Assembly: GCA_000004985.1 (NCBI GenBank) | Contig: GG739018.1 | Source of the DNA: Naegleria gruberi | Lineage: Eukaryota | Strand: one strand, 5' to 3' | DNA: 38,160 nucleotides | Shown: positions 1-38,160 of the stretch, in pieces | How the letters are laid out: every line of letters starts with the position of its first letter | Numbering within the stretch: position 1 is the first letter of the stretch | Program-made: the position numbers and the translations under genes | Notes under the pieces: generated by a model | Told to the model about the DNA's origin: nothing | Database searches by the model: none | What the model saw: the letters and a program-made list of their open reading frames with translations, nothing else

Positions 1-78
1 TCCCACCACCANTCAATCCAATTCCAAGAGAGCAATAATTTTTACTTTAGAATAAATTAATTTACTGTTTTTTTTGAA

Positions 79-1150
79 TTAGTGGTATAATTTAAACACC
101 ATGTCAGAATATCCATTCTCAGCATCAACAAGATCCAAAAGGTGTCTTCTGAATAAATATTCAGACGACATGTAAATGTTTGGCATAATTGTGTTAGATG
201 AATCAATAGTTGTTATGTAAAAGAAGGTATGCTGGAAACCAGGTGCGGCAGCAAACATTTCACCAGGTTTCAATATTGATGGATCCAACAATACTTTGTG
301 TGGAGATTTAACCAATTGATAAACTTCTCCAATACCAGATTGACCACATGAATTAAATCCCATTGAATACATATTACTATCTGTGCAATTTAGGAATAGT
401 GTCTTTATGCCAAGATAAATGTTTGTAATGCTAACACCTGGAGGCAAACCAAAACTAATCAACCCCACAGAGTTATCATTCGTAACGTCTGTGACAGAAG
501 TAAAAGAAAAACCAGCACCATAAAATCTATTAAGGGAAGTTCTGTACAGCTCAAAGTAATCAGAATCAAATACATCCTGTACTATTTCATCTTTCTTGAG
601 CGGTAGTGTTAGTCGAGCAAATACTTTTTCTCTCTGTCTGAAAATATGCCCCTTTTCTTTTTGAATTAATTGTGATACTTGTTAATATAATTAATCTCTT
701 TTTGGTTCCTGCTATTTTCTCAATAATGTCAGTTGTAAACAATTCAGTTTTCAATTTGTAAAGTGCATTATTCTTGGTAAAGCACTTTTTAACATATTTG
801 GGATCAAATACACGATGATTAGCAATGAAAATTCTGGAATTTCTCGTTAGGAATGCACTCCAAGAACCCCCTTGAAACATATCCTGTCCAATTAAAACCT
901 GTTTAAAAGGTAATTTAAACAAACTTCGACGAGTATTAAAAACATCCAATGGAACAATCCTATGGAAATGAAAATCATTATCAATACCCATCTCATAACT
1001 CATATTATACCCAATTCCATACAATTCTCCTCTGTCGTTCTCGAAAATATTTGTCGAATATCCCAAAACACAATTTACAATCACCATGCCTGATAATTCT
1101 CTAATAAGGGTTGGTTTTACAGCAAAGCTTGCACTTCCAATTCCAAGTTG
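79..1150 (-). CDS. Hypothetical protein, 3' portion; the 5' end runs into the N block. The coding sequence is split into two overlapping frames: 1150..587 (ATG at 1087, open upstream to the N block, TGA at 589-587) and 681..79 (TAA at 81-79). The second frame is +1 relative to the first and has no ATG for ~150 codons.
   Basis: Minus-strand translation was done by hand. Frame 1 reads ...QLGIGSASFAVKPTLIRELSGMVIVNCVLGYSTNIFENDRGELYGIGYNMSYEMGIDNDFHFHRIVPLDVF...TKKRLIILTSITINSKRKGAYFQTERKSICSTNTTAQER*. The +1 frame opens after TAA 684-682 and reads QVSQLIQKEKGHIFRQREKVFARLTLPLKKDEIVQDVFDSDYFELYRTSLNRFYGAGFSFTSVTDVTNDNSVGLISFGLPPG...MVFKLYH*. Both parts look like protein, with no low-complexity or antisense signature. 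The ORF-track entry 79..468 starts at a GTG, not an ATG. Confidence 0.5.
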
Positions 1151-1151
1151 A

Positions 1152-1396
1152 NNNNNNNNNNNNNNNNNNNNNNNNNNNNNNNNNNNNNNNNNNNNNNNNN
1201 NNNNNNNNNNNNNNNNNNNNNNNNNNNNNNNNNNNNNNNNNNNNNNNNNNNNNNNNNNNNNNNNNNNNNNNNNNNNNNNNNNNNNNNNNNNNNNNNNNNN
1301 NNNNNNNNNNNNNNNNNNNNNNNNNNNNNNNNNNNNNNNNNNNNNNNNNNNNNNNNNNNNNNNNNNNNNNNNNNNNNNNNNNNNNNNNNNNNNNNN
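1152..1396. other. Run of 245 N (masked sequence or assembly gap); content unknown
   Basis: Contiguous n characters in the supplied sequence. The length is not a multiple of 3. Confidence 1.
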
Positions 1397-1743
1397 CGTA
1401 GAGTTTGGATCTTGAGGTGAATTTCTATTAACTCATTCAATTTTACATTCTTTTCCATTAATTTTTCAACATCTTCCTTACTCAATGTTTCCTTTTCAAT
1501 TAGTTCATTAATTGGTTTTCTTACATTGAGTGAAAATATCTCTAGTCCTCTTTCATTCAAGTCCTTGTTGAGCTCCTCCATGAAATTATTATCAATGTTT
1601 GTGAATTTCTCCACAACTTTCTCAATTAATTCTTCCATTTCCTTTCGATCTAAGACTTTCTTTTCATCTTTATCCAATAACCTTTCAGATATTTCCAAAA
1701 ATCCTTTCCTATTCTTTTCATAATCCACAATACTAACTTTCAT
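1397..1743 (-). CDS. E/K-rich coiled-coil protein, N-terminal part (first ATG at 1743-1741; the C-terminal part disappears into the N block at 1396)
   Basis: Minus ORF MKVSIVDYEKNRKGFLEISERLLDKDEKKVLDRKEMEELIEKVVEKFTNIDNNFMEELNKDLNERGLEIFSLNVRKPINELIEKETLSKEDVEKLMEKNVKLNELIEIHLKIQTL... The opposite strand reads as a S/F-rich antisense artefact. The same frame is open for a further 67 codons upstream (1944..1744: FGNSLKRIRDGKIIVSRRGIVWPFQSSRIIKLDQPLLKVCVANNINNNNIGGLIKFDWNEREFPIER) with no ATG. The M at 1851 in the ORF track is really a TTG. Several rare codons (AGG, CGA, CTC, CTA) lower confidence. Confidence 0.4.
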
Positions 1744-1927
1744 TCTCTCAATCGGAAATTCTCTTTCATTCCAATCAAACTTTATTAATCCACCAATATT
1801 ATTATTATTAATATTATTAGCAACACATACTTTCAATAGAGGTTGATCCAATTTAATAATTCGTGATGATTGAAAGGGCCAAACAATTCCCCTCCTACTA
1901 ACAATTATTTTACCATCCCTAATTCTC

Positions 1928-2077
1928 TTAAGAGAATTCCCGAATTAAATATTCTGCCTCTGAATTACAAACTCTGAATCGGGATATTATTAGAGAAGCC
2001 ATCACAGAGGAGCTGACTATTATTGCACCCAATTTGAATCCAAAAGAAGGTTGTGGTTTAGCATCACTTTGATTCAT
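1928..2077 (-). CDS. 49-aa ATG-initiated ORF predicted to encode a single-TM micro-protein (MNQSDAKPQPSFGFKLGAIIVSSSVMASLIISRFRVCNSEAEYLIREFS). Alternatively it is the true first coding segment of the coiled-coil gene, in the +1 frame.
   Basis: ATG at 2077-2075 (plus-strand cat at 2075-2077) and TAA at 1930-1928. Hydrophobic 21-residue core GFKLGAIIVSSSVMASLIIS. The ORF ends 14 nt inside the start of the open frame of the downstream coiled-coil ORF. Confidence 0.2.
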   Translation of the reverse strand: MNQSDAKPQPSFGFKLGAIIVSSSVMASLIISRFRVCNSEAEYLIREFS

Positions 2078-2135
2078 TTTTTTGTAAGAAACTAATGTTT
2101 ATTGCAAGAAACATTTACATGAAATTTAAGTGAAT

Positions 2136-3405
2136 CTAATTTCTTTTGAAAAAGAAGAGAAAGTTAGCATAAAATCCACCAGTATCGAATTGGGGTGCAT
2201 AAATTGTTTCTGTTTCAGAAATATCGTCAATTTCTGTTATTTCTTCCTGTTTAGAACCAACATTAGCTTGGTAGAATATTTTGTAAGCTAGTTTAATTTC
2301 CTCATTGGCGAGATCGTTTTGAAAGGTGAGATCCCACCAAAAAGCTGAGCTCCTGGAAGCACATGAAACATCAATACGAACCTTGCCATCAAATAAATTA
2401 AAATCCTTAACATGGTTAAAATTGTTAATAACTATTATAAAATTTCTCACTTACCTCACCTGAGTCTTCTTCTGCTCCCATAGAAATATAAACAGTATCA
2501 GCACAACGATAGTGTTTGCGTTTGCATGGATTTTCTTTTGGCTGTTTCAATTCCAATAATTTGAACATTGTTGGGTCAATGTTCTCAGATTGGTTTGGTA
2601 ATAAGTATTTGGATTCCTTTCTCATTTTTTTGATGCAATCTGAAAATGGTTGTAGCATTTCTTTTGTAATCACAAACCCTTTGTTATTTTGTGTTAAATG
2701 ACGTTGTAAAAGGTTAACTTTGATAAATAGAGGAACCAATTGTTGTTGGCAAATATATGAGATTAGTTCATTCGAATATCCTTTCACTTCTTCGCCGTAA
2801 TTATTTTTAAATCGATTAGTTAATTTGAAAATTAGATCAACAATCTCATGCTCAGTCAACTCTCCTTTCAATGAGTACTTGATTGGGAAATATTTAAGTG
2901 AAAATTGAATTCCATCAAGTATCTTTGTGATAAGAGAGGGAATATCCAAATATTTGGCCATGTCAATAATTCTTTTCAAGGTTGAAGTACCCATATAACA
3001 ATTAAAATCATCACAATACAAATATCGGAAAATGATTTCAAAATCTTTTTTTTTCAAAGGTTCTCCCTCTGTTGAAATAGAGCCTTCAACACTTGTCAAA
3101 TCAATATTGAATTTATCATCAACTTTTCCCAATTTCCACTGTTCATTCGAATCAATCATGGTTCTAAATAAGCCACTTCTCTTGACTGCAAATTCATGAA
3201 CATTAAAATCTTTAAACGAAGTCTTTACAATAACATTCGGAGGAACAATAACAGTGTTATTATTATTATTATTTGCTCCTTCTTCATTCTCTCCATTACA
3301 ACTATCATACAAACTCGATAAGTGATCATAAAGATTCATCTCTTGTGGTTCTCTTGCTTCCTCAAGATCCTTGTCTTGATCAATTGTGCGGCTTCTCTTG
3401 CCCAT
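2136..3405 (-). CDS. BTB/POZ-domain protein. Proposed structure: exon 1 3405..2455, intron 2454..2406, exon 2 2405..2136 (406 aa spliced). The unspliced alternative ends at TAA 2427-2425 (326 aa).
   Basis: ATG at 3405-3403 sits in an A-rich context (GAAAAAAAAAATGGGC). A BTB-like fold signature is present: NVIVKTSFKDFNVHEFAVKRSGLFRTMI...DFEIIFRYLYCDDFNC...LKRIIDMAKYLDIPSL. A poly-Asn tract is encoded by (TTA)5 at 3257-3273. Exon 1 ends on a complete codon GAG, immediately followed by GTAAGT. The downstream 104-codon ORF (DFNLFDGKVRIDVSCASRSSAFWWDLTFQNDLANEEIKLAYKIFYQANVGSKQEEITEIDDISETETIYAPQFDTGGFYANFLFFFKRN*) is in frame after the first AG. Confidence 0.55.
2406..2454 (-). other. Putative 49-nt spliceosomal intron: 5' splice site GTAAGT (2454-2449), branch-like TATTAAC (2430-2424), 3' splice site TTAAG (AG at 2407-2406)
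   Basis: Minus strand reads GGT GAG|GTAAGTGAGAAATTTTATAATAGTTATTAACAATTTTAACCATGTTAAG|GAT TTT AAT. Removing it joins two long ORFs in frame. A second in-frame AG 24 nt further on (GGCAAG|GTT) is an alternative acceptor. Confidence 0.4.
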
Positions 3406-3582
3406 TTTTTTTTCTTGTTTTTATTTGAAAATCATCTTTACAATTTCCATAAAATTATTTCTCACTTGCCCATTCATTTTTTTTGTTCAGGATCCAAAAA
3501 TTAGAAGAATCATCTACGGTAAGTTTGGCGCCAAAACAAAGATTGTCTTTTTCGAAAAATCAAGTCGTTATTCAATAAAAAA
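3406..3582. promoter_or_regulatory. 177-bp divergent intergenic region between the BTB gene (minus) and the 3583 gene (plus); T- and A-rich
   Basis: Lies between two outward-facing ATGs. Homopolymer T10 at 3406-3415 and A-rich sequence before both starts. Confidence 0.4.
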
Positions 3583-3854
3583 ATGAGTAAGGAAGAATTG
3601 CCGTTAGATATTGAGGACAGCTATTATCAACATCAGCCAATTTTACAAGACTTTTCATATTTTGGATATTATCCACCAAAACATATAGTAGATGCTCAAC
3701 AAGCAGTCAAATCAAAATTGATAAGGTCTGCCAAGAAAGAGGCAGCTGCATCTTCATCAGGAAAAAGTACTCTCCGATATAAAAAGTTGCAAGAACAAGC
3801 TAAAAAGACAAAGGAAACTATAAAGAATGAACGAGAGAATGATATAATGCACAT
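3583..3854 (+). CDS. Hypothetical protein, N-terminal 90 codons only (the rest is in the N block); basic and K/E-rich after residue 40
   Basis: ATG at 3583 in the context AAAAAAATGAGT. Reads MSKEELPLDIEDSYYQHQPILQDFSYFGYYPPKHIVDAQQAVKSKLIRSAKKEAAASSSGKSTLRYKKLQEQAKKTKETIKNERENDIMH, then N. Preferred yeast codons are used. Confidence 0.45.
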
Positions 3855-7989: not shown

Positions 7990-8267
7990 GCATGAATTAT
8001 TGGAAAATTTTCATTTCTTATCCTTGTAATGTATTCTCTAGAAAGTGAAAGAAGAGAATGGTTATCATCGGAATCTTCTTGACGATTCAAAAGTGCTTGA
8101 CTGTTAGTTTCCATCTTTTTCTGATTCAAATATTGTTGCCACATTGATTGTTTCTCCTCTTCACTAACATTATTCAAAGACGCTTGTTGTTGTTGATTCT
8201 TCATGATTGTTCTTTTAGTAATGTAAATTCCAGCAGAAAGTCCGAGTACGAAACCAAACATGCCCAT
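7990..8267 (-). CDS. Hypothetical membrane-anchored protein, N-terminal 92 codons (N-terminal hydrophobic helix with GxxxGxxxG, then a Q/N/E-rich region); the remainder is in the N block
   Basis: ATG at 8267-8265. Reads MGMFGFVLGLSAGIYITKRTIMKNQQQQASLNNVSEEEKQSMWQQYLNQKKMETNSQALLNRQEDSDDNHSLLSLSREYITRIRNENFPIIH... It is divergent from CWC15. Confidence 0.45.
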
Positions 8268-8691
8268 TTTGATTGTTGTATTATTATTGAATTATAAATG
8301 TTAAATGATTGCTTTTTAACCTCAGTGTTTTATACTGCTAGTCGGTTGTTGTGTTTTTTTCTTATTGTACTTCTTCACAAAGGAGAGAAAGCTTTTATTG
8401 TGGAATTGTTGAGGATGAAATTTTGATTGGGTTTGTTATCGGAATAGGCTTCTCGGTTTTGGCGTCATCTGGATGATTAATATCGCAACAATCTACGCGT
8501 GCATATTATCGATTTCAAATTGATTGAGAGTACTCTGCCAAGGATAGCCAAAATGATAAAATTGTCTAATCCAAATGTTAATAAGATGACTATTGATGAT
8601 ATTGCTACAATGTTTAAAAAATTGAAAATATTGTTGAAGAAGAATATATTATTGACAAATGTATTATTAGAAAACAAGCATCAAATAAAAA
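8268..8691. promoter_or_regulatory. 424-bp divergent promoter region between the 8267 gene (minus) and CWC15 (plus). It contains one ACGCGT (MluI/MCB-like) hexamer at 8495-8500.
   Basis: Flanked by outward-facing ATGs. The small ORFs 8477..8677 (minus) and 8499..8714 (plus) in the track overlap each other and the CWC15 start, and are regarded as spurious. Confidence 0.4.
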
Positions 8692-9220
8692 ATGTCATCA
8701 AGACCAACATTTAATGCAGCGAAAGCAACCGAGACACAAGGTGGTTATAAACGTTATGTTCCATCACATACACAATCTGTATATTTAATGCCTTCCCACA
8801 CAGTCTTAAAAACAAGACAGATCGGGCAAGGAAATGAGGAAGAAATTAAACATAAAGATTTAAAGAAGGAATTACAAGAACGAGAACAATTAGTACAAAA
8901 AAAGAAGAATAATCAATCATCAACAATAATACCAGCAATAGAGGAAGAAAAAAATAAAGATATAATTGAAGAAATTGTAGAGGAAGAAACAGAGGAATTT
9001 ACAAAAGTTCCAAAATCAAACTATGATGATTCTGATGATGATTTAAATACATCTTCTGATTCCGACTCTGATGGTGACTCTGATAATGATGAACTAATTA
9101 AGGAATTGGAAAGAGTAAAAAGAGCAAAAGAGGAGAAGGAAAGACTTGCAACACAAGAACGAGCATTGACTAGTAATCCATTATTAAAACCAATAAGTAG
9201 TAGAAGGATGATGATGATGA
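8692..9220 (+). CDS. CWC15: Pre-mRNA-splicing factor Cwc15 (CWC15/AD002 family), N-terminal 176 codons; the 3' end is lost in the N block
   Basis: MSSRPTFNAAKATETQGGYKRYVPSHTQ... aligns with the conserved Cwc15 N-terminus (human TTAARPTFEPARGG...LPSHTKIK), as remembered. KELQEREQL matches RELEERER. The acidic/Ser cluster DDSDDDLNTSSDSDSDGDSDNDELIKELERVKRAKEEKERL corresponds to the D/E-rich region plus ALLAELEKIKKERAEE. TSNPLL matches LSGNPLL. Start context AAAAATGTC. Confidence 0.8.
9208..9220 (+). repeat. (ATG)4 trinucleotide microsatellite abutting the N block; encodes MMMM in the CWC15 frame
   Basis: atgatgatgatga directly followed by n. Confidence 0.7.
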
Positions 9221-36486: not shown

Positions 36487-36487
36487 A

Positions 36488-37294
36488 TCTTCACTCAAAT
36501 GTTTTGGTGCTGATAAGGAACTCTATAGACGTGAAGCTCAGAATGGTATCAACAAGATGAGTTACTTCCTTGGTAAATTGACTGGTGAAATTCCTTCCTT
36601 GTTGATCTATCCATTGGTCTTTGTTACTTTCTGGTATATCCTCGTTAATCCTGAAGCTGAATTCTACACATACTATGGACTCTTCTTATTATTCGAAATT
36701 GTTTTCAGTTCTCTTGGCTATTTCATTTCAGTTTTCGTTCAAAGAACTCATGCTGAATTTGTTGGTGTAATGTACATTATTTTGTGTGCCTTGTTGGGTG
36801 GTGTTCAACCAACAGTTCGTACCATGTCTAAGGAATGGTATACATTGGTTTTGGTTTGTTCTTCTCCAGTGAGATGGGCTGTCGAATTAATGTACACTGT
36901 TGAAATTAGAAAGTATCAAGAAAGTAATCAAAATGTTGCTACTGCTTTGGAGAATTATGGTTTCTCCTATAAGGCCTACTATATTTCACCAATTATCTTG
37001 ATTGCTATCACTATCATTTTCTTGGTATTATCATTCGTTGGTTTGGTTATGAGAGATCCACAAGCTGTCGAAAGAATCAAGACTCTCACTAGAGTTTACA
37101 TTAGAAAGGGTAAGAGAAAGTTGAAGAAATTGAAGAGTGAAAGAAAGAAGCCTGGTGACTATGTCTTCCAACAAGAAAGTGAAATTCAAGTTCTCGAAGA
37201 TGGTGAAGAAAGTGAATCAGATGAAGACGACGAATTGTTATTGCAACAAGATGAAGTCTATCAACCACCATCCATGCAACAAGATCAACAATAA
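36488..37294 (+). CDS. ABC transporter of the ABCG/White subfamily, C-terminal membrane domain (inter-TM loop motif, TM3-TM6, charged tail). The nucleotide-binding domain, TM1-2 and the start are in the N block.
   Basis: Frame open from the first visible base: SSLKCFGADKELYRREAQNGINKMSYFLGKLTGEIP (the ABCG hallmark, cf. ABCG2 ...GYYRVSSYFLGKLLSDLLP and White ...YFLGKTIAELP). Four hydrophobic helices follow (SLLIYPLVFVTFWYILV, FYTYYGLFLLFEIVFSSLGYFISVFV, FVGVMYIILCALLGGV, YYISPIILIAITIIFLVLSFVGLVM) with an amphipathic WYTLVLVCSSPVRWAVELMY between them. Then the tail KGKRKLKKLKSERKK...GEESESDEDDELLLQQDE and TAA at 37292-37294. Codon bias is very strong (TTG, GGT, TTC, ATC, GAA, AGA). The ATG at 36557 in the ORF track is internal. 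Confidence 0.85.
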   Translation, partial: SSLKCFGADKELYRREAQNGINKMSYFLGKLTGEIPSLLIYPLVFVTFWYILVNPEAEFYTYYGLFLLFEIVFSSLGYFISVFVQRTHAEFVGVMYIILCALLGGVQPTVRTMSKEWYTLVLVCSSPVRWAVELMYTVEIRKYQESNQNVATALENYGFSYKAYYISPIILIAITIIFLVLSFVGLVMRDPQAVERIKTLTRVYIRKGKRKLKKLKSERKKPGDYVFQQESEIQVLEDGEESESDEDDELLLQQDEVYQPPSMQQDQQ

Positions 37295-37490
37295 ACAACC
37301 AACTTGTGTGAAAACAACACGTAAATCTTGTCTTTTAACATCTTGTTGTGTTGAAATTTTTTCAGACAAAAATTTTTCATATTTATTGGTGTAGTTTGAT
37401 GAGTGGGTGATTTTCATTAATAAAACACCGTACTAACATAATAGTATATAGGGAGTGTTCAGGATATATTTTTAAGAACATCAATGTGAA

Positions 37491-37547
37491 TCGGGTGTGT
37501 ATAGTGGTAGCATTCCAGACTGTCACTCTGGCGACCCGGGTTCAATT
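37491..37547 (+). tRNA. tRNA-Asp(GUC), 5' segment of a gene interrupted in the T-loop: acceptor 5' strand TCGGGTG, U8, D-loop AGTGGTA, anticodon arm CCAGA-CTGTCAC-TCTGG (anticodon GTC at 37522-37524), 4-nt variable CGAC, T-stem 5' strand CCGGG, T-loop TTCAATT
   Basis: Perfect 5-bp anticodon stem with a 7-nt loop, U33 and GUC. The T-loop TTCAATT is the same as the yeast tRNA-Asp T-loop UUCAAUU (recalled). The 4-nt variable region is as in tRNA-Asp. The D-stem is imperfect (GTAT/GCAT or GTGT/GCAT) and the D region is 2 nt short. The 3' strands are absent locally but present at 37967-37986. Confidence 0.5.
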
Positions 37548-37585
37548 TGTTTTGTTAGTTGAATGATATCGGTCATTCCTTATTT

Positions 37586-37627
37586 GGAAATTTCATTCCC
37601 GGTACCCATGGTATGAACGAGAGTTTT
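37586..37627 (+). repeat. 42-bp direct repeat, copy 1 (GGAAATTTCATTCCCGGTACCCATGGTATGAACGAGAGTTTT). It contains the near-palindrome GGTACCCATGGTA at 37601-37613.
   Basis: Matches 37927-37968 at 39 of 42 positions. A CTCGAG hexamer follows both copies within 21 nt (37643-37648 and 37981-37986). Confidence 0.7.
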
Positions 37628-37690
37628 GACTGTGTTAAATTACTCGAGTGCTTTTGATCAAGAAGTTACAGTTATGAATAATTATCAAGG

Positions 37691-37754
37691 AATTTGGCGA
37701 CACGGTATTATATTAATAATGTGTTATTATTAAATGTTAATTTGGCGTCACGGT
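37691..37754 (+). repeat. Pair of 16-bp direct repeats AATTTGGCG[A/T]CACGGT (37691-37706 and 37739-37754), period 48 bp. They are GC-rich islands in AT-rich DNA.
   Basis: 15/16 identity. Both copies are followed by R-ATT. Confidence 0.5.
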
Positions 37755-37823
37755 GATTGCAATGTGTTTTTATTACAGTTAGTATCTGTTCAACAACAAA
37801 TCATCAATAATTAATTAACAATC

Positions 37824-37841
37824 AGTGACCTAACGGTCACT
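37824..37841. repeat. Perfect 7-bp inverted repeat AGTGACC-TAAC-GGTCACT (hairpin-forming)
   Basis: Read directly from the sequence. It does not extend beyond 7 bp. Confidence 0.5.
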
Positions 37842-37926
37842 ATTTAATAAACATTAATAACCATTAATTTATTACTGTTAATTTGTTTTGTTGTTATTAT
37901 TGTTGTTGAAGTCATCTTCCAAATTA

Positions 37927-37968
37927 GGAAGTTTCATTCCCGGTAGCCATGATATGAACGAGAGTTTT
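37927..37968 (+). repeat. 42-bp direct repeat, copy 2 (GGAAGTTTCATTCCCGGTAGCCATGATATGAACGAGAGTTTT). It ends at the tRNA T-loop junction.
   Basis: See copy 1. Confidence 0.7.
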
Positions 37969-37986
37969 CAATTCCCGGCACTCGAG
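37967..37986 (+). tRNA. tRNA-Asp 3' segment: T-loop TTCAATT, T-stem 3' strand CCCGG, acceptor 3' strand CACTCGA, discriminator G
   Basis: CCCGG pairs with CCGGG at 37536-37540. CACTCGA pairs 7/7 (one G.U) with TCGGGTG at 37491-37497, giving U1-A72 and G73 as in tRNA-Asp. A T4 run at 37992-37995 and T5CT5 at 38019-38029 lie downstream. Confidence 0.45.
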
Positions 37987-38018
37987 ATCAATTTTAGACA
38001 CTATCTCCAAGATTTGAG

Positions 38019-38029
38019 TTTTTCTTTTT
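38019..38029 (+). terminator. Oligo-T tract TTTTTCTTTTT, a candidate RNA polymerase III terminator for the tRNA-Asp 3' segment (a weaker T4 lies at 37992-37995)
   Basis: It lies 33 nt downstream of discriminator G at 37986. Yeast Pol III normally needs a run of T5 or longer. Confidence 0.25.
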
Positions 38030-38160
38030 GCATATTAGGAGGAATGATATGTAATCTACCTATATATCAATTTTCAAAGTTTCATCTCTTAAAACCACTG
38101 ATAAAATAATCAAAGATTTTACACCCTCATTTTCCTTTTAAAAAATATTACTGTAAGTTA

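What the first reader, a model, noticed from the sequence alone, without database searches (positions are those of the whole stretch)
37491..37995. tRNA-Asp(GUC) gene split in its T-loop by a 419-bp insertion with a 7-bp target-like duplication
Seen in sequence: 37491-37547 carries everything up to and including the T-loop of a tRNA with a perfect anticodon arm (GUC) and T-loop TTCAATT. That comprises the acceptor 5' strand, U8, the D-loop AGTGGTA, the anticodon arm, a 4-nt variable loop and the T-stem 5' strand CCGGG. The T-stem 3' strand and acceptor 3' strand are missing there. Exactly those pieces (TTCAATT-CCCGG-CACTCGA-G) reappear at 37967-37986. CCCGG completes the T-stem. CACTCGA pairs 7/7 with TCGGGTG, giving U1-A72 and G73, both tRNA-Asp traits. 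Oligo-T runs follow. The heptamer TTCAATT is present at both junctions. The intervening 419 bp is non-coding and internally repetitive. This pattern fits an insertion into a tRNA gene. Yeast retroelements normally target sequence upstream of tRNA genes rather than the body, so a body insertion that leaves a dead tRNA is unusual. If the element family is undescribed it would be worth naming. Alternatively this could be a recombination scar between tRNA-associated repeats.
Basis: partly seen in the sequence, partly recalled or inferred. Interest (0 to 1): 0.7.

Follow-up and report, generated by a model that had tools for sequence, protein, structure and literature searches.

The report
Insertion-broken tRNA-Asp gene in Naegleria
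A copy of the aspartate tRNA gene of the amoeba Naegleria gruberi has been cut in two by about 420 bases of repeat-bearing non-coding DNA, which most likely makes it an ordinary dead tRNA gene, with a hint that a small undescribed mobile element hit the same spot twice.

Summary
Joining 37491-37547 to 37974-37986 gives a 70-nt tRNA-Asp(GUC) that ARAGORN accepts; the uncut window yields no tRNA. TTCAATT sits at both junctions, far beyond chance.

The context was wrong. The window is a small, gap-filled scaffold of Naegleria gruberi, not yeast. It appears to be a redundant copy of a region on a 941-kb scaffold.

The 419-bp insert is composite:
- **E1 and E2:** two same-orientation copies (78 and 83 bp, 86% identical) of a short non-coding unit, each directly preceded by the heptamer.
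- **M:** about 250 bp of unrelated AT-rich DNA between them.

Tests run:
- No inverted termini, LTR hallmarks or ORF were found.
- No splicing (BHB) motif forms in any register.
- Five T4-5 runs lie inside the insert, so a giant intron is very unlikely.

Best reading (about 0.5): mobile, non-coding DNA inserted once or twice into the T-loop with a 7-bp target duplication, leaving a pseudogene. The main rival is local duplication between tRNA-Asp-associated repeats.

No other copy could be sought, because no N. gruberi genomic DNA beyond this window is reachable with these tools. A distant relative has no tRNA at this locus. Interest is modest.

The parts
37491..37540 (+). tRNA-Asp(GUC) positions 1-53: acceptor 5' strand, weak D arm, anticodon arm (GTC at 37522-37524), variable loop, T-stem 5' strand CCGGG
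   Evidence: Sequence read. ARAGORN cloverleaf after the in-silico join.
37541..37547 (+). H1: T-loop heptamer TTCAATT, left copy of the junction duplication
   Evidence: All 8 junction registers give the same joined tRNA.
37548..37625 (+). E1: 78-bp non-coding repeat unit, TGTTTTGTT...GAGAGTT
   Evidence: Direct repeat with E2. Local alignment score 110 against 36+-5 for shuffles. 66 of 77 aligned columns are identical. The 52-nt core is 88% identical.
37635..37655 (+). Possible second tRNA 3'-end relic: TTAAATT (heptamer with one change), ACTCGAG (37642-37648), TGC, TTTT. On the minus strand 37643-37651 reads GCACTCGAG, identical to the last 9 nt of the tRNA.
   Evidence: Only suggestive: p~0.025-0.044 for the 7-mer, 0.016 for the 9-mer and 0.10 for the heptamer-like site.
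37628..37879 (.). M: 252 bp of AT-rich spacer unrelated to either flank. It has imperfect inverted ends (13/20), two 16-mers AATTTGGCGwCACGGT 48 bp apart, and a hairpin at 37823-37842.
   Evidence: No similarity to the flanks (z about 0). Inverted ends (I6, 59). 16-mers (D3). Hairpin.
37877..37883 (+). H3: GTTAATT, the heptamer with its C missing (TT-AATT), directly left of E2
   Evidence: A heptamer with at most one edit at a fixed junction occurs at 1.1% of positions in the window's own non-coding DNA.
37884..37966 (+). E2: 83-bp second copy of the repeat unit. All length differences from E1 lie in its first ~35 nt, which read on the minus strand are a CAA/TAA-rich stretch ending AACAAAACA next to the heptamer.
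37967..37973 (+). H4: second exact TTCAATT, right copy of the junction duplication
37974..37986 (+). tRNA-Asp positions 61-73: T-stem 3' strand CCCGG, acceptor 3' strand CACTCGA (7/7 pairs with TCGGGTG, one of them G-U), discriminator G
37992..37995 (+). TTTT run 6 nt after the tRNA 3' end, a terminator-like run for RNA polymerase III
   Evidence: The terminator role is inferred from general knowledge of Pol III.

Best explanation
This is a dead copy of a nuclear tRNA-Asp(GUC) gene of Naegleria gruberi. Foreign non-coding DNA was inserted into its T-loop, and the loop heptamer TTCAATT was duplicated as a 7-bp target-site duplication.

The 419 bp between the two exact heptamers is composite. 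E1 (78 bp) and E2 (83 bp) are same-orientation copies of one short unit. Each has the heptamer directly on its left. They are separated by about 250 bp of unrelated AT-rich DNA (M).

The most economical history is two insertions of members of one mobile family at the same T-loop position, separated by a slightly decayed copy of the duplicated heptamer (TT-AATT). E2 shares only the heptamer-proximal end with the longer E1+M copy. That end, read on the minus strand, is a CAA/TAA-rich stretch ending AACAAAACA. This is the pattern expected of retroposed copies lying antisense to the tRNA, one of them 5'-truncated. A cut-and-paste element with a later nested insertion of M is about equally possible.

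Consequence: the T-stem and acceptor 3' strands lie 426 bp away from their partners, and a T4 run begins 3 nt after the T-loop. Pol III would at most make a ~60-nt 5' fragment and no tRNA.

Shown: the split, the heptamer copies, the E1/E2 repeat, the lack of coding capacity and the lack of a splicing motif. Inferred: mobility, the class of element, the order of events and the transcriptional outcome.
For: - **Split gene:** the joined halves make a tRNA-Asp(gtc); 0 of 200 shuffles do.
- **Not chance:** about 2e-6 such sites are expected.
- **Junction duplication:** exact TTCAATT at both junctions.
- **E1/E2 are homologous:** score 110 against 36+-5; 66/77 identical.
- **Second unit has its own heptamer:** E2 has one on each side; the left one has p~0.011.
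- **M is foreign to the locus:** unrelated to either flank, so this is not a plain tandem duplication.
- **One variable end:** the length differences between E1 and E2 all fall in the low-complexity end next to the heptamer.
- **No coding, no stable fold:** no ORF above 35 aa; no significant structure in E.
- **Not an intron:** five T4-5 runs lie inside the insert, and no register gives a BHB splicing motif.
- **Lineage-specific DNA:** a relative's orthologous ABCG gene is followed by only 155 bp and no tRNA, so this DNA is specific to the N. gruberi lineage or was lost in the relative.
- **Literature:** tandem insertions separated by the target duplication, 6-7-bp duplications and absence of inverted termini are documented for elements that live inside small-RNA genes (PMC3706591). 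Most N. gruberi repeats are unclassified (PMC12344493). The genome carries about 924 tDNAs (PMC2888827).
Against: - No second genomic copy of E or M with different flanks was seen. No N. gruberi genomic DNA beyond this window could be searched, and scans of the other collections gave nothing.
- No inverted termini (4-6 of 20), no clean TG...CA ends, no PBS or PPT, no ORF.
- E1 is followed by TTAAATT-ACTCGAG-T4, which may be a second tRNA 3' end and would favour duplication of an already interrupted gene (p~0.03-0.04).
- The structure rests on a 1,674-bp contig at the end of a gap-filled, apparently redundant scaffold.
- The D arm is abnormal, so the tRNA-like part may itself belong to a tRNA-derived repeat rather than to a once-working gene.
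Confidence: 0.5

Rival explanations
1. Two relics rather than one split gene. An already interrupted tRNA-Asp gene (5' part, heptamer, E, heptamer, 3' part) was duplicated locally or recombined with a paralogue. The first unit kept its 5' part and a damaged 3' end (TTAAATT-ACTCGAG-T4). The second unit lost its 5' part and kept a perfect 3' end. No new transposition is needed beyond the original E insertion.
For: The R1/R2 homology runs from the heptamer through E and picks up again at ACTCGAG in both copies. A T4 run follows both ACTCGAG copies. The 7-mer after E1 has p~0.025-0.044, and the 9-mer GCACTCGAG on the minus strand has p~0.016. N. gruberi has about 924 tDNAs, which gives many substrates for recombination (PMC2888827).
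Against: M shows no trace of the missing tRNA 5' part, nor of the DNA downstream of the second unit (z about 0 to -1). The CCCGG strand is absent from the first unit. Joining unit 1 to its own putative 3' end gives no tRNA. The statistics for the relic are only suggestive. The breakpoint falling exactly at heptamer H3 would be unexplained.
Confidence: 0.22
2. One 419-bp miniature LTR-type retroelement (TRIM/SMART-like). E1 and E2 are its terminal direct repeats and M is its internal domain, inserted once.
For: Terminal direct repeats of ~80 bp, 86% identical, flank a ~250-bp internal part. E begins with TG, and E2 plus the next bases ends in CA. A 9-nt match to the complement of the tRNA-Asp 3' end (CTCGAGTGC, 37643-37651) lies 14 nt after E1, where a primer-binding site might be.
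Against: The duplication is 7 bp, or 3 bp if the ends are set at TG...CA; LTR integrases give 4-6 bp (general knowledge). E1 ends in GA, not CA. No purine tract precedes E2. The putative primer site lacks the TGG for CCA, is too far from the repeat, and is a 1.6% chance event. The repeat homology extends 4 nt into the left heptamer before E2 (p~0.011), which an LTR model does not predict.
Confidence: 0.1
3. A working gene with a giant non-canonical intron in the T-loop, or a split tRNA whose halves are joined at the RNA level, as in Cyanidioschyzon merolae or some archaea.
For: The two halves remain perfectly complementary in all three long stems. Interrupted and permuted tRNA genes exist in one eukaryote (PMC3728597).
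Against: Introns do not duplicate exon sequence, yet the heptamer is present twice. Five T4-5 runs lie inside the insert, the first starting 3 nt after the T-loop, and would stop Pol III (terminator role from general knowledge). No register gives a bulge-helix-bulge; the best has h 4/4, H 2/4, h' 3/4 (geometry from memory). The whole-region fold is only z=-2.5 and shows no junction helix. No Rfam intron or ribozyme family matches. The D arm is defective.
Confidence: 0.02
4. An assembly or cloning artefact. The small end-of-scaffold contig joins reads from different tRNA-Asp-associated loci.
For: The feature lies on a 1,674-bp contig between a 27-kb N run and the scaffold end. The scaffold duplicates genes of a 941-kb scaffold. 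A related ENA contig shows 670 bp where the window has 245 N, so the N runs look like real gaps.
Against: A chimeric join makes one breakpoint. It does not make two exact heptamer copies with precisely complementary tRNA halves in the right order and orientation.
Confidence: 0.05

Closest known systems
Dada DNA transposons (PMC3706591, PMC8869645)
   Same: They insert inside multicopy small-RNA genes, including tRNA-Asp, give 6-7-bp target duplications and have no terminal inverted repeats. Tandem insertions separated by one copy of the duplication are documented. Internally deleted non-coding derivatives exist.
   Different: Known Dada sites are tRNA nucleotides 8-13 or the anticodon arm, not the T-loop. 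Dada is reported from animals and Perkinsus, not Heterolobosea. No transposase, no sub-terminal inverted repeats and no shared termini between E2 and E1+M are seen here.
Site-specific non-LTR retrotransposons of multicopy RNA genes (R2 type; Utopia in U2 snRNA genes, PMC4640811)
   Same: A fixed insertion point inside a multicopy RNA gene, copies that share the 3' end and differ by 5' truncation, and short target duplications.
   Different: No reverse-transcriptase remnant is present. The tail is only A-rich, not poly(A). No such family is described for tRNA T-loops or for Naegleria. The resemblance rests on two copies.
tRNA-gene-targeting retrotransposons of Dictyostelium and yeast (TRE5-A, TRE3, DGLT-A, Ty1, Ty3; PMC5006619, PMC5911963)
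   Same: They use Pol III genes as landing marks in a gene-dense protist genome.
   Different: Those elements land tens of bp upstream or downstream and leave the tRNA gene intact. Here the gene body itself is cut.
Miniature LTR retroelements (TRIM, SMART; from memory)
   Same: Total size of a few hundred bp, terminal direct repeats of ~80-100 bp, no ORF.
   Different: The 7-bp duplication, the absence of a PBS and PPT, inconsistent TG...CA ends, and repeat homology reaching into the heptamer.
Ectopic introns and permuted tRNA genes of Cyanidioschyzon merolae (PMC3728597)
   Same: tRNA coding sequence interrupted outside position 37/38 in a eukaryotic nucleus.
   Different: Those introns are short and form BHB-type motifs without duplicating exon bases. 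Here no BHB forms, the heptamer is duplicated, the insert is 419 nt and it contains internal T runs.

Membership tests
tRNA-Asp(GUC) gene | Cloverleaf with anticodon GUC, U1-A72 and G73 | tested here: met
   Met only after in-silico removal of 37548-37973.
tRNA-Asp(GUC) gene | Contiguous coding sequence, or an intron at 37/38 | tested here: not met
   ARAGORN and Rfam find nothing in the native sequence. The halves lie 426 bp apart.
tRNA-Asp(GUC) gene | Canonical D arm (3-4 pairs, nucleotide 9 present) | tested here: not met
   Two Watson-Crick pairs.
Transposable-element insertion (any class) | Target-site duplication at both junctions | tested here: met
   Exact TTCAATT at 37541-37547 and 37967-37973. 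A third copy, TT-AATT, lies at 37877-37883.
Transposable-element insertion (any class) | Other copies in the genome with different flanks | not testable with these tools
   No N. gruberi genomic DNA beyond this window is reachable. There were 0 hits in the viral, JGI metagenome and GTDB collections, and none elsewhere in the window.
Transposable-element insertion (any class) | Empty site in an allele or a relative | tested here: inconclusive
   The relative with a 64%-identical ABCG protein has a 155-bp intergenic region and no tRNA at all. The allelic 941-kb scaffold cannot be read.
Dada superfamily | Insertion inside a small-RNA gene with a 6-7-bp duplication and no terminal inverted repeats | tested here: met
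   (4-6 of 20 terminal matches). Criteria taken from PMC3706591.
Dada superfamily | DDE transposase, or termini shared with an autonomous Dada | tested here: not met
   No ORF above 35 aa in the insert. An autonomous partner could not be sought.
Dada superfamily | Insertion at tRNA nucleotides 8-13 or in the anticodon arm, with sub-terminal inverted repeats mirrored in the target | tested here: not met
   The site here is the T-loop (nt 54-60). No such sub-terminal repeats were found. Criteria from PMC8869645 and PMC3706591.
Miniature LTR retroelement (TRIM/SMART) | Terminal direct repeats | tested here: met
   E1 and E2 share 66 of 77 aligned bases.
Miniature LTR retroelement (TRIM/SMART) | 4-6-bp duplication, TG...CA ends, PBS next to the 5' repeat, purine tract before the 3' repeat | tested here: not met
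   The duplication is 7 bp, or 3 bp with TG...CA ends. E1 ends in GA. Only a 9-nt match lacking TGG lies 14 nt away (p 0.016). No purine tract at 37860-37883.
Non-LTR retroposon / SINE, antisense to the tRNA | Shared A-rich 3' end next to the duplication, variable 5' truncation | tested here: inconclusive
   Both copies end in AACAAAACA next to the heptamer, with a CAA/TAA stretch of variable length. E2 stops where E1 continues into M. There are only two copies.
Non-LTR retroposon / SINE, antisense to the tRNA | Internal Pol III promoter or a reverse-transcriptase partner | not testable with these tools
   No tRNA, 5S or 7SL match on either strand. A partner element would need the genome.
Non-canonical tRNA intron / split tRNA | BHB or relaxed BHB at the exon-intron junctions | tested here: not met
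   In 8 registers, none has h, H and h' together. The minimum-free-energy fold shows no junction helix.
Non-canonical tRNA intron / split tRNA | Transcribable as one Pol III unit | tested here: not met
   T4-5 runs begin at 37550, 37624, 37652, 37767 and 37886, and a sixth (from 37965) straddles the right junction. The terminator role is inferred from general knowledge.

The most novel reading that the evidence does not exclude
E is a member of an undescribed Naegleria mobile family that homes to the T-loop heptamer of tRNA-Asp genes. It would integrate inside the B box with a 7-bp duplication, so it can stack in tandem at the same site. It would then be the first body-targeting, T-loop-specific element of tRNA genes, and the first target-specific element reported from Heterolobosea. 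It could also account for some of the interrupted, decayed copies among the organism's roughly 924 tDNAs and for part of its unclassified repeats.
Probability: 0.2. Interest if true: 0.6.

Novelty: new member of a known kind. Interest (0 to 1): 0.3.

Why it matters
As it stands, this is one more tRNA pseudogene in a genome with hundreds of tDNAs. Its practical value is for annotation: tRNA finders miss it, and it marks an unclassified repeat.

It would matter more if E proves to be a family that repeatedly lands in the T-loop of tRNA-Asp genes. Known elements that use tRNA genes as safe havens either land beside the gene (Ty, TRE, DGLT-A) or, for Dada, cut the A-box or anticodon region. A B-box or T-loop-specific family in a deep-branching protist would add an independent example of targeting multicopy RNA genes, and a candidate sequence-specific integration system.

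Tried and rejected
- **tRNA and RNA-family scans:** ARAGORN and Rfam (gathering and E<=10) on the native sequence found no tRNA, intron, ribozyme or other RNA family.
- **Other copies in public collections:** exact-pattern scans for the E core and for the tRNA 5' half gave 0 hits in IMG/VR, JGI metagenomes and GTDB genomes.
- **Other copies in the window:** none.
- **Fetching N. gruberi DNA through its proteins:** failed for XP_002668550, XP_002682507, XP_002668888 and a window ORF.
- **Small ORFs of the locus:** exact look-up found nothing. A full HMMER search of 1.84 billion representatives with the 73-aa ORF over E2 gave only a 35-bit low-complexity hit.
- **Plain tandem duplication of a ~337-bp unit:** rejected, because M is unrelated to the DNA after the second repeat.
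- **tRNA fragments inside the insert** (TTCATTCCCGG, TGGCGACACGG): not above chance individually, with scores 17-18 against a null 95th percentile of 20.
- **Stable structure in E on either strand:** none, z -0.6 to -1.8.
- **Helitron and inverted-repeat transposon readings:** rejected from the termini.
- **Acrasis kona and an unidentified heterolobosean contig:** no tRNA near their ABCG homologues.
- **Searching for a Dada transposase in Naegleria:** considered but not run. Hits could not be filtered by taxon or linked to E.
Full report
**What the window is**

Only 6.5 kb of the 38,160 positions are bases: 1-3854 (with 245 N inside), 7990-9220 and 36487-38160. The ORF ending at 37294 is 100% identical to Naegleria gruberi XP_002668550.1, whose contig length is 38,160, so the window is a whole small scaffold of that amoeba.

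The same 245 residues are 100% identical to the C-terminus of a 1,691-aa ABCG protein on a 941,567-bp scaffold. The protein at the other end of the window also has a twin, at least 90% identical, on that scaffold. The window is therefore probably a redundant haplotype scaffold.

An ENA metagenome assembly (ERZ929261) holds contigs 94-99% identical to window 1-3455. One of them has 670 bp where the window has 245 N, so the N runs look like true gaps. The finding sits on a 1,674-bp contig at the scaffold end, 196 bp downstream of the ABCG stop codon.

**Observation check**

- The native sequence gives no tRNA with ARAGORN or Rfam.
- Joining 37491-37547 to 37974-37986 gives a 70-nt tRNA-Asp(gtc).
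- Any of the eight junction registers inside the heptamer gives the same product.
None of 200 shuffles is called.
- About 2e-6 sites completing both stems after a second exact TTCAATT are expected in 700 nt.

The acceptor, anticodon and T stems are perfect. The D arm has only two Watson-Crick pairs and the molecule is 2 nt shorter than usual, so the tRNA part is itself slightly degenerate.

**Anatomy of the insert**

The 42-bp repeat is part of a longer direct repeat. From left to right:

| Part | Coordinates | Content |
|---|---|---|
| H1 | 37541-37547 | TTCAATT |
| E1 | 37548-37625 | 78-bp repeat unit |
| spacer | 37626-37634 | 9 nt |
| H2-like | 37635-37641 | TTAAATT |
| 3'-end-like | 37642-37655 | ACTCGAG, TGC, TTTT |
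| M | about 37628-37879 | AT-rich spacer (overlaps the three rows above) |
| H3 | 37877-37883 | GTTAATT, i.e. TT-AATT |
| E2 | 37884-37966 | 83-bp repeat unit |
| H4 | 37967-37973 | TTCAATT |
| tRNA 3' end | 37974-37986 | CCCGG, CACTCGA, G |
| T run | 37992-37995 | TTTT |

E1 and E2 share 66 of 77 aligned bases. All indels lie in the first ~35 nt, which on the minus strand is a CAA/TAA-rich stretch ending AACAAAACA next to the heptamer. M is unrelated to either flank and has imperfect inverted ends (13/20).

- A heptamer with at most one edit directly left of E2 has p~0.011.
- The heptamer-like site after E1 has p~0.10.
- The shared ACTCGAG has p~0.025-0.044.
- The 9-mer GCACTCGAG on the minus strand has p~0.016.
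- Other tRNA-like fragments in the insert are within chance.

**Testing the readings**

- **Intron or split gene:** the exon heptamer is duplicated. Five T4-5 runs lie inside the insert, the first starting 3 nt after the T-loop. No register gives a bulge-helix-bulge. There is no junction helix in the fold and no Rfam intron or ribozyme match. Rejected, about 0.02.
- **Inverted-repeat transposon or Helitron:** the termini do not fit.
- **Miniature LTR element:** terminal direct repeats are present. However, the duplication is 7 bp (or 3 bp), there is no PPT, the PBS-like 9-mer is weak, and the homology runs into the heptamer. About 0.1.
- **Plain tandem duplication:** rejected, because M has no counterpart after E2.
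- **Two relics of an already interrupted gene:** supported only by the suggestive 3'-end-like sequence after E1. M holds no trace of a 5' half, and unit 1 with its own 3' piece is not a tRNA. About 0.22.
- **Artefact:** a chimera cannot create two heptamers and complementary halves. About 0.05.

**Best explanation (about 0.5)**

Mobile non-coding DNA entered the T-loop with a 7-bp duplication. Because E2 carries its own heptamer pair, the simplest history is two hits at the same position. These would be E2 and a longer E1+M copy that shares only the heptamer-proximal, A-rich end.

That pattern fits antisense retroposed copies with 5' truncation. Alternatively, two E insertions were followed by insertion of M. 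Tandem insertions separated by one copy of the duplication are known for elements that live inside small-RNA genes (PMC3706591).

The gene is dead. The B box is cut from the 3' strands, and Pol III would stop at the first T4 run. That last step is an inference.

**External evidence**

- No further copy could be sought. No N. gruberi genomic DNA beyond this window is available through any tool.
- Pattern scans of the viral, metagenome and prokaryote collections gave nothing.
- A full-library protein search with the ORF over E2 found nothing real.
- A relative whose ABCG protein is 64% identical has a 155-bp intergenic region and no tRNA on 18.6 kb. The tRNA plus insert is therefore lineage-specific, or was lost there.
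- Acrasis kona also has no tRNA near its homologue.

**Comparison with known systems**

- **Dada transposons** share the 6-7-bp duplication, the lack of inverted termini, the habit of cutting small-RNA genes and tandem stacking. They hit nucleotides 8-13 or the anticodon arm, carry a DDE transposase, and are not reported from Heterolobosea (PMC3706591, PMC8869645). Membership is not supported.
- **Site-specific non-LTR elements** (PMC4640811) share the fixed site and one common end.
- **Ty, TRE and DGLT-A elements** land beside tRNA genes, not in them (PMC5006619, PMC5911963).
- **C. merolae ectopic introns** differ in every tested feature (PMC3728597).

**Verdict**

The locus is best filed as an insertion-disrupted tRNA-Asp pseudogene carrying an unclassified short repeat. 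This fits a genome with about 924 tDNAs (PMC2888827) and mostly unclassified repeats (PMC12344493).

Interest is 0.3. It would rise to about 0.6 if E proves to be a T-loop-specific family, which I rate at about 0.2.

Noticed in passing
window 1-38160: 83% of the window is N. It is a complete 38,160-bp Naegleria gruberi scaffold. The genes at both ends have twins, 90-100% identical in protein, on a 941,567-bp scaffold, so it looks like a redundant haplotype scaffold.
   Followed up: partly
L003 1-2986 and L004 1-1245, against window 1-3455: ENA metagenome assembly ERZ929261 (ERR1078381, PRJEB11402) contains contigs 94-99% identical in DNA to this scaffold. L003 has 670 bp where the window shows 245 N (1152-1396). 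An N. gruberi-group strain is therefore present in that sample.
   Followed up: partly
window 37628-37879: The spacer M has imperfect inverted ends (GACTGTGTTAAATTA... / ...TAATTTATTACTGTT, 13 of 20). It might itself be a small inverted-repeat element nested between the two E copies.
   Followed up: partly
window 37691-37706 and 37739-37754: Two copies of AATTTGGCGwCACGGT lie 48 bp apart inside M. They faintly resemble the tRNA's variable loop plus T stem (TGGCGACCCGG), but the similarity is not above chance.
   Followed up: yes
window 37823-37842: A perfect 7-8-bp hairpin, CAGTGACC-TAAC-GGTCACTG, lies in the middle of M.
   Followed up: no
window 37576-37589 and 37917-37930: The small stem TTCC...GGAA inside E has its 6-nt loop apparently flipped between the copies (TTATTT against AAATTA). 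The match is 13/14 as reverse complement and 11/14 direct (pair I5).
   Followed up: no
L002 13075-13229: In an unidentified heterolobosean contig (ENA ERZ2098899) the ABCG orthologue, 64% identical in protein, is followed after 155 bp by a convergent 1,789-aa gene. There is no tRNA anywhere on the 18.6-kb contig.
   Followed up: yes
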